Of a stretch of DNA of 64,000 nucleotides, positions 31,324-34,489 are shown in pieces. The position numbers and the translations under genes were made by a program. The notes under the pieces are model-generated. The model ran no database searches, was not told where the DNA came from, and saw only the letters and a program-made list of their open reading frames with translations. Within the stretch, counting starts at the first letter, position 1, and every line of letters begins with the position of its first letter. Origin of the DNA: an uncultured Spirochaetaceae bacterium (GTDB lineage: Bacteria > Spirochaetota > Spirochaetia > Treponematales > Treponemataceae); assembly GCA_902778325.1 (NCBI GenBank), contig CACYWZ010000005.1, forward strand, positions 4,347-68,346, given 5' to 3'.

Positions 31324-31848
31324 TCAGCCGACCCAGCGCTTTTGAGTGCAAAGGATTGGCTCTGTTGTGCCGTCAAAGTCGAATCGCGCCATGCTCTTTG
31401 CGCTTTCGATAATGCGCTGATTGGAACTTCCGCGAAAACGCAAATCGAGTGTGCGTTTTTCAAGAACGAAAAGCCCGTCGACAACAATGTCGACATTTCG
31501 CAAAAGTTCAAGGCGATATGGATTTTTCTCGCTCAAGAGTTCTTCCCACGAAAAGCCTGTGTAAAGCGCGACTTCATATCCTTCGCTTTTCAAGACTTTT
31601 GCAAGGCAAGAAGCCTCTTCTGCCTGATAAACAGGGTCGCCACCAGAAAGTGTGACACCGCGACAAAGAGGACTCTTTTTTATTTTGGAAATGATTTCAT
31701 CCGCGCTCATCTCTGTTCCAGTACCGAACGCGTGGGTTTCAGGGTTATGGCAACCAGGGCATTTGTGAGCGCAGCCTTGAAAGAAGACGGTCGAGCGAAG
31801 CCCCGGACCGTCTACGATTGAATCACCTACAATTCCCGCGATATTCAT
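31324..31848 (-). CDS. nrdG: Anaerobic RNR-activating radical SAM protein
   Basis: SIVDGPGLR, CxxxCxxC (CAHKCPGC) and LRFRGSSNQR motifs; TAATG overlap with the upstream small gene. Confidence 0.93.
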   Translation of the reverse strand: MNIAGIVGDSIVDGPGLRSTVFFQGCAHKCPGCHNPETHAFGTGTEMSADEIISKIKKSPLCRGVTLSGGDPVYQAEEASCLAKVLKSEGYEVALYTGFSWEELLSEKNPYRLELLRNVDIVVDGLFVLEKRTLDLRFRGSSNQRIIESAKSMARFDFDGTTEPILCTQKRWVG

Positions 31849-32039
31849 TATGCAATGCAATGCTTTACGCGGTCTTTTTCTTCTGAACGCTTTGCGTCGT
31901 TAAATCTTTCGAGCGTTCCGACAAGATAGCCTGTAATGCGTCTTATCCTCTCAAATCCGACTCCTGCACCAAAAGATGCCACTGCCAAGCCGTCTTCCTC
32001 CTCTATTGGATAAACCTCGTGTTGCAAAAGTGCTGTCAT
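31848..32039 (-). CDS. Stand-alone glycyl-radical C-terminal segment of NrdD (63 aa)
   Basis: FERIRRITGYLVGTLERFNDAKRSEEKDRVKH is the NrdD glycyl-radical tail; own SD (gagg) and ATG. Confidence 0.85.
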   Translation of the reverse strand: MTALLQHEVYPIEEEDGLAVASFGAGVGFERIRRITGYLVGTLERFNDAKRSEEKDRVKHCIA

Positions 32040-32072
32040 AATTTGCCTCGCTTACATTTATTTTTTACTTCG

Positions 32073-34424
32073 TCAGAAGTATCTAGCCATGTTTATAGGG
32101 AACTTCTTTCTCAATTCAGAAAGTTTTGCGGCAGAAATCGCCTCTCCCTCTCGTCTTCCGCATCTCGGACACACATCGCCGATAACGCCCACATAACCAC
32201 AAACAGGATCGCGGTCAACAGGGTGATTCACGCTTCCGTAACCGATTCCTGCATCGTGCATGCAACGGATTACGCTCTCGAACGCCTCAACGTTGTTCGC
32301 TGTGTCGCCGTCAAGCTCCACATAAGTGATATGCCCGCCATTCGTCAATTCGTGATAAGGCGCTTCCTTTCGGATTTTATCATAAGCGCTAATCGGGAAA
32401 TAAACAGGGATATGAAACGAGTTCGTGTAATAATCCCTGTCCGTAACGCCTTTGATAATCCCAAAACGCTTTTTGTCCAACCGCACAAATCGTCCGCTCA
32501 AGCCCTCAGCAGGAGTTGCGATAAGCGCAAAGTTGAGCCGTCTTTTCTGGCTTTCAGCATCGAGATATTTTCGCATATGCGAAATAATCGCCAAGCCTTT
32601 TTGCTGCATCTCATCGCTCTCGCCGTGGTGATGACCGTAAAGCGAAACCAGCGTTTCCGCCAAGCCAATAAAACCAACGCTGAGGCTTCCATGCTTCAAG
32701 ACCTCACCAACAGTGTCATTAGGTCCCAAGTTCTCGCTTCCAAGCCACACGCCCTGTCCCATAAGGAAAGGATAATTGTAAACGTGCTTTGCGCTCTGAA
32801 TCTTGAAGCGGTCAAGAAGCTGGCGAACCACAAGATTAAGCATATCGTCAAGCTTCTTGTAGAACAGCGCCTCATCTCCGTTGCTTTCTATCGCCAATCT
32901 CGGCAAGTTTATCGACGTGAACGACAAATTTCCGCGTCGTGGAGCTGTTTCGTGCATTGGATCGTAAACGTTACCCATAACGCGAGTGCGACACCCCATA
33001 TACGCGATTTCTGTTTCAGGATGCCCTGCCTTGTAATACTTCAAGTTGAAAGGCGCGTCGATAAAACTAAAGTTCGGGAAAAGCCTCTTTGCGCTGACCT
33101 CACACGCACGAATGAACAAATCGTAATTCGGGTCGCCCTCGTTATAGTTCACGCCGTCTTTCACGCGGAAAATCTGAATCGGGAAAATCGGAGTCTCCCC
33201 CATTCCAAGCCCTGCGTCAGTCGCGTTGAGCATATTGCGAATGACCATTCTTCCCTCAGGACTCGTGTCCGTTCCGTAGTTCACAGAGCTGAACGGCGTT
33301 TGAGCGCCAGCGCGGGAGTGCATCGTGTTCAAGTTATGAATCAAAGCCTCCATCGCCTGATACGTTGCTCGCTCTGTTTCGCGCAATGCTTCTTTCACAG
33401 CGAACTTCTGAGCGTCCTCGATTGTCCGCTCTTCAAATCCTGCTTCCATCAACGCCTTTTTTTCGAGTGCCAAAAAGCGCTTGTCAGTCGCAATCTGTCG
33501 CTTCACACCGTTTTCCCACTCGATAAAGCGGTCTGTTTCCTTGAGAGCGTCAAGTTGCGCCGCCGAAGCATATTTTGCGCTCTTTCCGCGCCCAAGATTC
33601 TCGAACGCCGTTCTGTCAGCATCGCTTCCCATGCAAGAGCGAAGCTCAAGCGCACGGAAAAGATTTGTTGTGTAATAAGTCTTATATGATTTGGCAACAC
33701 CAGGCGCAAGCCCGCGGTCAAAATCCACAATCGCCTGTCCACCGTGCTGGTCGTTCTGGTTCGACTGAATCGCGATACAAGTCAAAGCCGCGTAACTCTG
33801 GATTGAGTTCGGCTCTCGCAAAAAGCCGTGTCCAGTCGAAAAGCCGTCTTTGAACAATGATTCAATCTCAATCTGGCAACACGTTGTCGTCAGCGCATAA
33901 AAATCAAAGTCGTGAATATGAATGTAGCCTGAGTGATACGCCTCAGCCATATCGCGAGGAAGCATATACTTCTCGTAGTAGTCCTTCGCCGCCTCGCTTC
34001 CGTACTGGAGCATTGTGCCCATCGCAGTATCGCCGTTGATATTGGCGTTATCGCGCTTCAAGTTGCTTTCGCTGCTGTCCGCTTTGGTGAGCTCATCGAA
34101 CGTGTGCATAAGCGAAGAATCCATCTCTCGAGTGTTCGTTCGCTCAAAGCGGAAAGACACATATTTTTCAAGCGCGTCGATAAAGTGCAAGTCCTTAAGC
34201 GCGTCCTTCACTGCCTGCTCAATCTGAATAACCGAAATCTCTTCGCCGCTGAAAGAGGAATCAAGACTTTCCTGAACCTTATCCGCTATCAGTTTTGAAG
34301 ACGTTGCAATCTTTGCAGGAGACAGATTTGCATCTCCCATAGCAAGAGCAACTGATTGTGCAATTTTGTCCCAACTATAAGGTGTAATTCTGCCGTCCCG
34401 TTTTTTTACTGACTTGATATTCAT
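32073..34424 (-). CDS. nrdD: Anaerobic ribonucleoside-triphosphate reductase (class III) lacking its glycyl-radical tail
   Basis: ATP cone (VKKRDGR), TTTCCQ, YMGCRT finger loop and CxxC...CxxC zinc site; no RxxGY motif before the stop. Confidence 0.93.
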   Translation of the reverse strand: MNIKSVKKRDGRITPYSWDKIAQSVALAMGDANLSPAKIATSSKLIADKVQESLDSSFSGEEISVIQIEQAVKDALKDLHFIDALEKYVSFRFERTNTREMDSSLMHTFDELTKADSSESNLKRDNANINGDTAMGTMLQYGSEAAKDYYEKYMLPRDMAEAYHSGYIHIHDFDFYALTTTCCQIEIESLFKDGFSTGHGFLREPNSIQSYAALTCIAIQSNQNDQHGGQAIVDFDRGLAPGVAKSYKTYYTTNLFRALELRSCMGSDADRTAFENLGRGKSAKYASAAQLDALKETDRFIEWENGVKRQIATDKRFLALEKKALMEAGFEERTIEDAQKFAVKEALRETERATYQAMEALIHNLNTMHSRAGAQTPFSSVNYGTDTSPEGRMVIRNMLNATDAGLGMGETPIFPIQIFRVKDGVNYNEGDPNYDLFIRACEVSAKRLFPNFSFIDAPFNLKYYKAGHPETEIAYMGCRTRVMGNVYDPMHETAPRRGNLSFTSINLPRLAIESNGDEALFYKKLDDMLNLVVRQLLDRFKIQSAKHVYNYPFLMGQGVWLGSENLGPNDTVGEVLKHGSLSVGFIGLAETLVSLYGHHHGESDEMQQKGLAIISHMRKYLDAESQKRRLNFALIATPAEGLSGRFVRLDKKRFGIIKGVTDRDYYTNSFHIPVYFPISAYDKIRKEAPYHELTNGGHITYVELDGDTANNVEAFESVIRCMHDAGIGYGSVNHPVDRDPVCGYVGVIGDVCPRCGRREGEAISAAKLSELRKKFPINMARYF

Positions 34425-34434
34425 ATCGACTTAA

Positions 34435-34489
34435 AGTATATCACGCTATATCTATGGTATGTCAAGCCAAACTACACCATTAGTATGGT
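34435..34489 (-). promoter_or_regulatory. nrdD promoter with tandem NrdR-like boxes
   Basis: TTGACA (34465-34460) and TGaTATACT; NrdR-like 16-mers ACGCTATATCTATGGT (34443) and ACACCATTAGTATGGT (34474), 31 bp apart, which is the usual NrdR spacing. Confidence 0.6.

What the first reader, a model, noticed from the sequence alone, without database searches (positions are those of the whole stretch)
31848..34424. Naturally split class III RNR: the glycyl-radical tail is a separate 63-aa gene
Seen: NrdD ends after its zinc site with no RxxGY motif. 33 nt later a gene with its own SD encodes RIRRITGYL...DRVKH and is coupled (TAATG) to nrdG. The two ORFs are in frame but separated by three stops (TGA, TAA, TAA), so a single sequencing error cannot explain it. 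Known: the glycyl radical of NrdD lies in this C-terminal loop, and oxygen cleaves the chain there; GrcA/YfiD is a spare radical domain for PFL. Inference: a replaceable radical module that could allow cheap repair after oxygen damage. Similar short genes may exist in other anaerobes, so novelty is not established.
Basis: partly seen in the sequence, partly recalled or inferred. Interest (0 to 1): 0.65.

Follow-up and report, generated by a model that had tools for sequence, protein, structure and literature searches.

The report
Two-piece anaerobic ribonucleotide reductase
This Treponema encodes its oxygen-sensitive DNA-precursor enzyme (class III ribonucleotide reductase) as a large catalytic protein plus a separate 63-residue peptide that carries the essential radical glycine; the layout is conserved in many gut anaerobes and their phages, and I found no paper describing it.

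Summary
On the minus strand lie nrdD (783 aa, ends after the CPRCG zinc-ribbon motif, no RxxGY), a 33-nt gap with in-frame TGA, TAA and TAA, a 63-aa ORF with its own GAGG Shine-Dalgarno sequence that carries RRITG37Y, and nrdG joined by TAATG.

It is not an error. Eight independent assemblies give the same three ORFs, and dN/dS against a sister species is 0.10.

It is not a local oddity. Of the 80 species-representative loci that best match the small protein, 58 are split in this way, in all three relative frames; 16 are fused and 10 are orphan small genes. In one sampled Clostridia family, all 29 genomes with a tail-less NrdD also have a free tail gene, against 8 of 43 genomes that have only fused NrdD (p = 3.5e-13). 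78 of the 80 best viral loci carry only the small gene.

Split cores share a conserved C-terminal extension that looks like a decayed duplicate of the radical segment.

The best reading is an obligate two-polypeptide NrdD whose radical loop is made, activated by NrdG and replaced as a free peptide. The repair advantage is inferred.

This genome also has a conventional nrdDG pair. Reviews from 2021 and 2026 know spare parts only for pyruvate formate-lyase.

The parts
34435..34465 (-). Candidate promoter of the operon: TTGACA, a 19-nt spacer, then an extended -10 (TGaTATACT). A 15-nt box ACGCTATATCTATGG (34443-34457) lies in the spacer.
   Evidence: Read from the sequence. The box pattern occurs only twice in the 3.35-Mb genome, upstream of each of the two nrdD genes. 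The pattern was derived from those two sites, so this is weak evidence. An NrdR gene is present in the genome. The consensus scan did not list this promoter because of the 19-nt spacer.
32073..34424 (-). nrdD core subunit, 783 aa. It contains an ATP-cone, the alpha/beta barrel with thiyl-radical Cys478 (MGCRTRV) and Cys182, and the CPRCG zinc-ribbon motif. It has no glycyl-radical loop.
   Evidence: Pfam NRDD positions 1-531 of 562 (E 1e-183) plus ATP-cone. NF005497 scores 1026 bits. The best solved relative is Prevotella copri NrdD 8p23. The AF2 core has pLDDT around 90. Invariant residues are listed.
32076..32153 (-). C-terminal extension of the core (residues 758-783, REGEAISAAKLSELRKKFPINMARYF). 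It is conserved among split NrdDs and absent from fused ones. It is probably a vestige of a duplicated radical segment in which the glycine was lost.
   Evidence: Comparison of C-termini. MAFFT aligns the fused GFERIRRI with this extension. hhalign gives P = 0.018 over 12 columns. Extension versus own radical segment gives p < 0.05 in 27 of 57 loci, best in L066 where GY and D.V.H are retained. For the window itself the similarity is not significant (p = 0.33). AF2 models a helix at residues 765-774.
32040..32072 (-). 33-nt intergenic gap that is in frame with both ORFs. Together with the nrdD stop it holds three stops (TGA, TAA, TAA), and it holds the GAGG Shine-Dalgarno sequence of the small gene.
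   Evidence: The gap is identical in 8 independent assemblies. In the sister species L017 the gap has a different length and sequence, but the two ORFs are preserved.
31848..32039 (-). Radical subunit, 63 aa. It has a variable acidic N-terminal part (residues 1-25) and a conserved core GAGVGFERIRRITG37YLVGTLERFNDAKRSEEKDRVKH, which corresponds to the NrdD glycyl-radical loop plus the C-terminal helix.
   Evidence: Pfam NRDD positions 533-562. It aligns to the P. copri residues around Gly711. About 8000 or more clusters of 46-71-aa homologues were found; all 39 fetched start with Met. dN/dS is 0.10 against L017.
31324..31848 (-). nrdG activase, 174 aa, a radical-SAM enzyme with CxxxCxxC. It is translationally coupled to the small gene through TAATG.
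   Evidence: TIGR02491 NrdG scores 149 bits, above the cut-off of 126. Pfam Fer4_12 and Radical_SAM also match. In the 84 loci tabulated, nrdG was found downstream of the tail segment in 59 of the 74 split or fused loci, usually at -4 to +130 nt.

Best explanation
The locus is a three-gene class III ribonucleotide reductase operon: nrdD core, radical peptide and nrdG. The chain is divided between the zinc-ribbon and the glycyl-radical loop.

**Shown**
- The two ORFs are real and separate.
- They are conserved and under purifying selection.
- In a sampled family, every tail-less core is accompanied by a free tail gene.

**Inferred mechanism**
- NrdG abstracts hydrogen from Gly37 of the free 63-aa peptide. 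Because the peptide is free, it does not first have to swing out of the barrel.
- The charged peptide then inserts its loop into the NrdD barrel next to Cys478 and stores the radical there between turnovers.
- The Met-Gly-Cys478 motif suggests, from my memory of the formate-dependent subtype, that the enzyme otherwise uses formate as reductant. This was not tested.
- Because oxygen cleaves the chain at the radical glycine, the damage would fall on a 7-kDa exchangeable peptide rather than on an 88-kDa enzyme. This makes replacement cheap.

**Probable origin**
The split most likely arose by tandem duplication of the 3' end of a fused nrdD. The upstream copy then decayed into the conserved C-terminal extension. 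In Treponema the operon looks horizontally acquired from Clostridia-type gut anaerobes.
For: **Anatomy.**

**Reproducibility.** Eight independent assemblies carry the identical gap.

**Selection.** dN/dS is 0.10 against the sister species. The conserved radical segment there carries many synonymous and few replacement changes (pS 0.54, pN 0.085).

**Conserved catalytic residues.** Cys478, Cys182 and the CPxCG motif are invariant in 62 homologues.

**Distribution.**
- There are about 8000 or more clusters of 46-71-aa homologues.
- In 84 tabulated loci, 58 are split, 16 fused and 10 orphan. All three relative frames occur, and the distance from the nrdD stop to the tail match ranges from -10 to 326 nt.
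- The same layout occurs in Butyricicoccus and in cultured Ruthenibacterium lactatiformans.

**Co-occurrence.** 29 of 29 genomes with a tail-less core have a free tail gene, against 8 of 43 genomes with only fused NrdD (p = 3.5e-13). 26 of those 29 have no fused NrdD.

**Action in trans.** Orphan copies sit beside full-length NrdD. 78 of the 80 best viral loci carry the small gene alone.

**Origin.**

**Nearest relatives and horizontal-transfer pattern.**
Against:
- The AF2 model of a read-through fusion left the glycine loop below pLDDT 50, so docking is not modelled.
- This genome has a second, complete and conventional nrdD-nrdG pair, so the split enzyme need not be essential here.
- The similarity between the extension and the radical segment is not significant for the window's own sequence (p = 0.33). 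The loci used for that test are not phylogenetically independent.
- Split and fused forms are intermixed on the tree (8 changes by parsimony, at least 4 forced by well-supported branches), so the direction of change is unresolved.
- The repair advantage is an argument from the known oxygen chemistry, not a result.
Confidence: 0.8

Rival explanations
1. The split operon is a decaying copy. The break inactivated this nrdD, and the cell lives on the conventional nrdDG pair on contig C25.
For: A full-length NF006732-type NrdD (720 aa, RRTCGYIG) with its own nrdG exists in the genome. Only 3 of the 25 sampled genomes of the genus (this one included) carry the type A operon.
Against: - dN/dS is 0.10 for the small ORF.
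- The catalytic residues are intact.
- The Shine-Dalgarno sequence and the TAATG coupling are kept.
- The same layout is conserved across phyla, and 26 of 29 genomes with a split NrdD in one family have no fused NrdD.
- Split cores share a conserved extension of their own.
Confidence: 0.04
2. One chain is made after all, by stop-codon read-through, frameshifting or ribosomal bypassing of the 33-nt gap.
For: In this window the two ORFs are in the same frame and the gap is short. Bypassing of a coding gap is known from T4 gene 60 (bioRxiv 10.1101/2022.08.31.505936).
Against: - Three stops of two kinds would have to be passed.
- There are no matching take-off and landing codons: TTC precedes the stop and there is no TTC in the gap.
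- The small ORF has its own GAGG-ATG.
- In relatives the relative frame is 0, 1 or 2, and the spacing varies from overlapping the nrdD end to 326 nt. In 8 of 29 genomes the tail gene is on another contig or far away.
Confidence: 0.02
3. The small protein is a true GrcA-like spare part or radical reservoir. It would serve the other, full-length NrdD or oxygen-cleaved enzymes in general, and would not be the dedicated subunit of the adjacent core.
For: Orphan copies coexist with full-length NrdD in some genomes (G042-G044; 8 of 43). Phages carry the gene alone. This genome has a full-length NrdD.
Against: - The adjacent core has no radical loop of its own and would be dead without a supplied one.
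- The tail sequence belongs to the NF005497 subtype of the adjacent core, not to the RRTCGYIGTQFWNQGR type of the paralogue.
- The gene is translationally coupled to the NrdG of its own operon, which is only 35% identical to the paralogue's NrdG.
Confidence: 0.07
4. The split was created by a mobile element, namely a homing endonuclease gene that was later lost. It would have left a C-terminal and an N-terminal extension that now hold the pieces together, as in the phage Aeh1 nrdA 'genes in pieces'. This rival concerns the origin only, not the function.
For: There is precedent for mobile-element splits that leave such extensions, and for MobC lying between T4 nrdD and nrdG. The split cores have a conserved basic extension, and the window's peptide has an acidic N-terminus.
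Against: - No endonuclease gene lies between the pieces in any adjacent locus I examined; the spacings are at most 326 nt.
- The extension resembles the radical segment itself. L066 and L080 still keep GY...EEADKVAH, which fits duplication better.
Confidence: 0.15

Closest known systems
Single-chain class III RNR NrdD with activase NrdG (Prevotella copri 8p23, phage T4 1h78, E. coli)
   Same: The ATP-cone, the barrel, the thiyl Cys in MGCRTRV, the CPxCG zinc-ribbon motif, the RITGY radical loop sequence and an adjacent NrdG are all present. Foldseek gives a TM-score of 0.85-0.89 to 8p23 and its sister entries.
   Different: The radical loop and C-terminal helix are a separate translation product. 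The large chain ends in a conserved 26-aa extension that fused enzymes lack.
GrcA/YfiD of E. coli and Y06I of phage T4 (autonomous glycyl radical cofactors for pyruvate formate-lyase)
   Same: Both are small stand-alone proteins that carry only a glycyl-radical segment. The concept of a part supplied in trans is the same, and phage-borne versions exist in both cases (PMC8683613).
   Different: The homology is to NrdD, not to PFL: Pfam reports NRDD and no Gly_radical match. In this locus the partner enzyme has no radical loop of its own, so the peptide is an obligate subunit rather than a back-up. It is also shorter (63 aa against 127 aa).
Split RNRs of other classes: NrdJa/NrdJb (class II, Pseudomonas) and the Aeh1 phage NrdA-a/NrdA-b (class I)
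   Same: In each case an RNR catalytic chain is encoded as two adjacent genes that must assemble, and the pieces carry extra terminal extensions (PMC9669993).
   Different: The class is different and so is the break point. Here the piece that is split off is the radical cofactor itself, and no endonuclease gene lies between the pieces.
Spirochaete two-piece NrdD whose radical loop is fused to a thioredoxin-like domain (seen in sister Treponema genomes)
   Same: The core ends after the zinc-ribbon, the radical loop lies on the next ORF, and nrdG follows.
   Different: It belongs to a different NrdD lineage. The small subunit has about 190 aa and a CPxCP redoxin domain, and the radical motif is RIVGYY. 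It is not present in this genome.

Membership tests
Class III RNR catalytic subunit NrdD (PF13597 / NF005497) | Barrel core with the thiyl-radical cysteine and overall sequence membership | tested here: met
   PF13597 gives E 1e-183. NF005497 scores 1026 bits against a cut-off of 764. Cys478 in MGCRTRV is invariant in 62 homologues. The fold matches 8p23.
Class III RNR catalytic subunit NrdD (PF13597 / NF005497) | C-terminal glycyl-radical loop (RxxGY) on the same polypeptide | tested here: not met
   The large ORF covers profile positions 1-531 only. Positions 533-562 lie on the 63-aa ORF behind three stops.
Class III RNR catalytic subunit NrdD (PF13597 / NF005497) | Dedicated radical-SAM activase NrdG in the operon | tested here: met
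   TIGR02491 scores 149 bits against a cut-off of 126. The gene is TAATG-coupled.
Class III RNR catalytic subunit NrdD (PF13597 / NF005497) | Glycyl radical formed, and NTP reduction activity | not testable with these tools
   This needs EPR and enzyme assays.
GrcA/YfiD autonomous glycyl radical cofactor | Small free-standing protein that consists essentially of a glycyl-radical segment | tested here: met
   The 63-aa ORF has its own Shine-Dalgarno sequence. Thousands of 46-71-aa homologues exist, and all those fetched start with Met.
GrcA/YfiD autonomous glycyl radical cofactor | Sequence homology to the PFL C-terminus (Pfam Gly_radical) | tested here: not met
   Only PF13597 NRDD is reported at E <= 0.01. 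NCBIfam gives only NrdD models.
GrcA/YfiD autonomous glycyl radical cofactor | Acts as a back-up for a full-length cognate enzyme that has its own radical domain | tested here: not met
   The adjacent cognate core lacks the loop. The pattern is met only by orphan relatives in other genomes.
Mobile-element 'genes in pieces' RNR (Aeh1 nrdA type) | Homing endonuclease gene, or its remnant, between the two halves | tested here: not met
   The gap is 33 nt here, and at most 326 nt separate the nrdD stop from the tail match in the 58 split loci.

The most novel reading that the evidence does not exclude
The free radical peptide is an exchangeable 'cartridge' shared by a large part of the anaerobic gut microbiota.

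- NrdG charges it off the enzyme.
- It plugs into tail-less NrdD cores, and possibly also into oxygen-cleaved full-length ones.
- The decayed duplicate at the end of the core serves as a placeholder or docking element.
- Temperate phages carry only the cartridge gene, to keep host deoxynucleotide synthesis running during infection or oxygen stress.

This would be a second, independently evolved spare-part system for glycyl radical enzymes.
Probability: 0.3. Interest if true: 0.85.

Novelty: new variant of a known kind. Interest (0 to 1): 0.7.

Why it matters
All glycyl radical enzymes must expose a buried loop to their activase, and all are destroyed by oxygen at that loop. A natural class III RNR whose loop is a free peptide gives a ready-made system for three studies: activation off the enzyme, radical hand-over between polypeptides, and repair by replacement.

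Two reviews (PMC8683613, 2021; PMC13450708, 2026) state that spare-part proteins are known only for pyruvate formate-lyase. One of them speculates that they might exist for other enzymes of this kind.

The layout occurs in abundant, cultured human gut bacteria (Ruthenibacterium, Butyricicoccus) and in their phages. It therefore also bears on oxygen tolerance and phage-host metabolism in the gut.

For annotation, tail-less nrdD genes should not be called pseudogenes, and the genes of about 50-70 codons next to them should not be dropped as fragments.

Tried and rejected
- **Sequencing reads and RNA evidence.** I used independent assemblies instead.
- **Model of the complex.** I ran AF2 on a read-through fusion with a 62-row alignment. 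The core is confident, but the linker and the glycine loop fall below pLDDT 50, so it says nothing about docking. Foldseek only re-confirms the NrdD fold.
- **hhalign of the extension against the radical segment.** The result is only P = 0.018 over 12 columns, which is suggestive at most.
- **GenBank phage collection.** There were 13 hits, mostly unannotated fragments or full-length phage nrdD. IMG/VR was far more informative.
- **Consensus promoter and terminator scan.** It gave nothing useful for the operon.
- **Recoding and pseudogene readings.** I considered and rejected both; see the rival explanations.
- **Literature.** Five full-text searches and eight papers checked found no description of a split class III RNR or of an NrdD-type autonomous radical protein. 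Absence from this library is not proof of absence.
Full report
**Observation**

The genes lie on the minus strand.
- nrdD (34424..32073, 783 aa) ends ...CPRCGRREGEAISAAKLSELRKKFPINMARYF and then TGA.
- The next 33 nt read in frame as CGA AGT AAA AAA TAA ATG TAA GCG AGG CAA ATT. Together with the nrdD stop, three stops therefore separate the two ORFs. GAGG lies 6 nt before the next ATG.
- The 63-aa ORF (32039..31848) encodes MTALLQHEVYPIEEEDGLAVASFGAGVGFERIRRITGYLVGTLERFNDAKRSEEKDRVKHCIA.
- Its TAA overlaps the ATG of nrdG (31848..31324).
- Pfam NRDD matches profile positions 1-531 of 562 in the large ORF and 533-562 in the small one, and an ATP-cone sits at the N-terminus.
- NCBIfam places the large ORF in NF005497 (1026 bits) and nrdG in TIGR02491.

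**Not an artefact**

- The identical 63-aa protein is indexed in 74 blocks of the public collection. Eight places from different samples were fetched. All show nrdD 783 aa, the small gene 63 aa and nrdG 174 aa at the same relative positions.
- Their gap is identical to the window's. The few differences in the compared stretch were third-codon-position or non-coding changes.
- In a sister species (L017) the gap differs in length and sequence, but both ORFs are kept. The small ORF has pS 0.52 and pN 0.08, giving dN/dS of about 0.10. The conserved core is rich in synonymous changes.

**What the pieces are**

- The nearest solved enzyme is the fused Prevotella copri NrdD (8p23). Its DKLQRITGYLVGTTDRWNSGKLAELHDRVTH aligns with the small ORF.
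- In an alignment of 62 homologues, Cys478 (MGCRTRV, the thiyl-radical site), Cys182 and C742/C752/C755 of the zinc-ribbon are invariant.
- An AF2 model of a read-through fusion is confident for the core (mean pLDDT 86, pTM 0.83) and matches 8p23 with TM-scores up to 0.89. The linker and the glycine loop are below pLDDT 50, so docking is not resolved.
- In that paper's definition, the break in this window lies inside the domain, between the zinc site and the glycine loop.

**Genome context**

- The genome has no class I or class II RNR.
- It has a second, conventional class III pair on contig C25: a 720-aa NrdD of type NF006732 ending RRTCGYIGTQFWNQGRTQEIKERVLHL, followed by its own nrdG.
- NrdR is present. 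Both nrdD genes are preceded by a similar 15-nt box that lies in the promoter spacer. This is weak evidence, because the pattern was derived from the two sites themselves.
- In the genus, most genomes have the conventional type. Many have a different two-piece type, described below. Only three (this one, G004 and G008) have the type found here.
- On a tree of 65 cores, the window's nearest relatives are a Treponemataceae split form (70% identity), a fused spirochaete form, and then Clostridia. This pattern fits horizontal acquisition.

**Distribution**

- A search with the 63-aa protein returned 7989 small proteins among the 8000 candidates that were scored. All 39 that I fetched start with Met. 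They have a variable N-terminus of 10-30 residues and a nearly invariant core, G.GVGFERIRRITGYLVGTLDRFNDAKRAEE.DRVKH.
- Among one-genome-per-species records, at least 568 stretches match. I scripted a classification of the best 80 plus four further loci, the window among them. The result was 58 split, 16 fused and 10 orphan.
- Among the split loci, all three relative frames occur. The distance from the nrdD stop to the tail match ranges from -10 to 326 nt. nrdG usually follows within -4 to +130 nt.
- Taxa include Oscillospiraceae, Lachnospiraceae, Bacilli, Muribaculaceae, Fibrobacter, Mailhella/Desulfovibrio, Eggerthellaceae and Treponemataceae.
- Butyricicoccus pullicaecorum and cultured Ruthenibacterium lactatiformans (759-aa core) have the same layout.
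- I sampled 81 genomes evenly from one Clostridia family. 29 have a core whose match to the profile stops at position 530-547, and all 29 also have a free tail gene. The tail gene is adjacent in 21 and distal in 8. 26 of the 29 have no fused NrdD.
- Of the 43 genomes in that sample with only fused NrdD, 8 carry an extra orphan tail. Fisher's exact test gives p = 3.5e-13.

**Anatomy of split versus fused**

- Fused relatives join the zinc-ribbon to the loop through 6-8 residues (CPxCGR.E..G.GFERIRRITGY...).
- Most split cores instead end in a conserved extension, CPRCGRREGEA(I/V)S.EKL.ELRKK(Y/F)P.MP.F.G.E (40 of 58). Eighteen have a shorter or longer end; some of the longer ones keep a radical-loop-like remnant.
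- MAFFT aligns the fused GFERIRRI to this extension. hhalign gives P = 0.018.
- Extension against own radical segment reaches p < 0.05 in 27 of 57 loci. In L066 and L080 the extension still reads ...NGYKKD...EEADKVAHPV.
- I read this as tandem duplication of the 3' end followed by decay of the first copy. In the window the signal is eroded (p = 0.33) and Gly-Tyr has become Lys-Phe.
- Split and fused states are intermixed on the tree. Parsimony needs 8 changes, and at least 4 are forced by well-supported branches. Re-fusion or module exchange must therefore also have occurred.
- A lost homing endonuclease is an alternative origin with precedent, but no endonuclease gene was seen.

**Free copies**

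- Some genomes with full-length NrdD also carry an orphan tail protein of 97-127 aa with an N-terminal extension (G042-G044). Others have tail-less cores with distal tails (G041, G046).
- One 62-aa homologue sits alone among Mu-like phage genes.
- In IMG/VR, 217 viral stretches match. 78 of the best 80 are small ORFs with no nrdD or nrdG within 3.5 kb.
- These copies show that the peptide is selected as a module that acts in trans.

**Mechanism**

Shown: two conserved ORFs, obligate co-occurrence, and coupling to nrdG.

Inferred from the established chemistry of NrdD/NrdG and of GrcA:
- NrdG charges Gly37 on the free peptide.
- The loop inserts next to Cys478.
- Oxygen damage is confined to a cheap, replaceable peptide.

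The role of the conserved extension is unknown.

**Comparison with what is known**

- Reviews state that spare-part proteins are validated only for pyruvate formate-lyase (PMC8683613; PMC13450708).
- Surveys of RNR extensions describe split class II enzymes but no split class III (PMC9669993).
- I found no paper on this layout.
- Earlier notes of this scan on other genomes reached the same reading, for both two-piece types and for phage copies. I saw them after my own analysis. They are not independent evidence.

**Limits**

There are no reads, no expression data and no docking model. Several counts rest on my own scripts over fetched loci and on a reading of the table.

Noticed in passing
L011-L016 and L018 (sister Treponema and other genomes of the order; e.g. 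L011:2212-2811): This is a second, unrelated two-piece NrdD. The core ends after the zinc-ribbon. The next ORF (about 180-200 aa) carries TEVYSRIVGYYRSVRNWNKGKR, a linker and a CPxCP thioredoxin/glutaredoxin-like domain, and nrdG follows. Pfam gives NRDD positions 532-562 and weak Glutaredoxin/Thioredoxin matches.
   Followed up: partly
G000:C25:25949-27757 (L001:1153-3315, nrdG from about 3324): The genome has a second, conventional class III RNR: a 720-aa NF006732-type NrdD with its own radical loop and its own nrdG (35% identical to the window's NrdG). It has no class I or class II RNR.
   Followed up: yes
window 34443-34457 and G000:C25:25526-25540: A 15-nt box, ACGCTATAT.TA..G, lies in or next to the promoter of both nrdD operons and occurs nowhere else in the genome. 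It is a candidate NrdR operator, and an nrdR gene lies on C24. The pattern was derived from the two sites themselves.
   Followed up: partly
L063:3848-4150, L064:3836-4216, L038:2727-3017, L186 (viral): These orphan NrdD-type radical proteins of about 90-127 aa have an extra N-terminal part. Examples are ...EEIDAYVARAQKKFP...IDI...VDI.Y in a bacterium and ...DEINNYVKYL...VDLTYE in a viral contig. Some coexist with full-length NrdD.
   Followed up: partly
L020:1719-3965: In one Oscillospiraceae genome the split-type nrdD core has an internal stop codon. This could be a pseudogene or an assembly error.
   Followed up: no
G045:C19:14808-17681: A Selenomonadales nrdD core matches the profile in two pieces (1-265 and 259-534) inside an open frame of 1127 aa, which suggests a large insertion such as an intein. 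Its tail gene lies on another contig.
   Followed up: no
window 32153-32230 (NrdD residues 734-757): In this NrdD subtype the first cysteine pair of the zinc-ribbon appears to be only one cysteine (DRDPVC742GY). His734, Asp737 and Asp739 are invariant nearby. P. copri has CLDCGY at this place.
   Followed up: no
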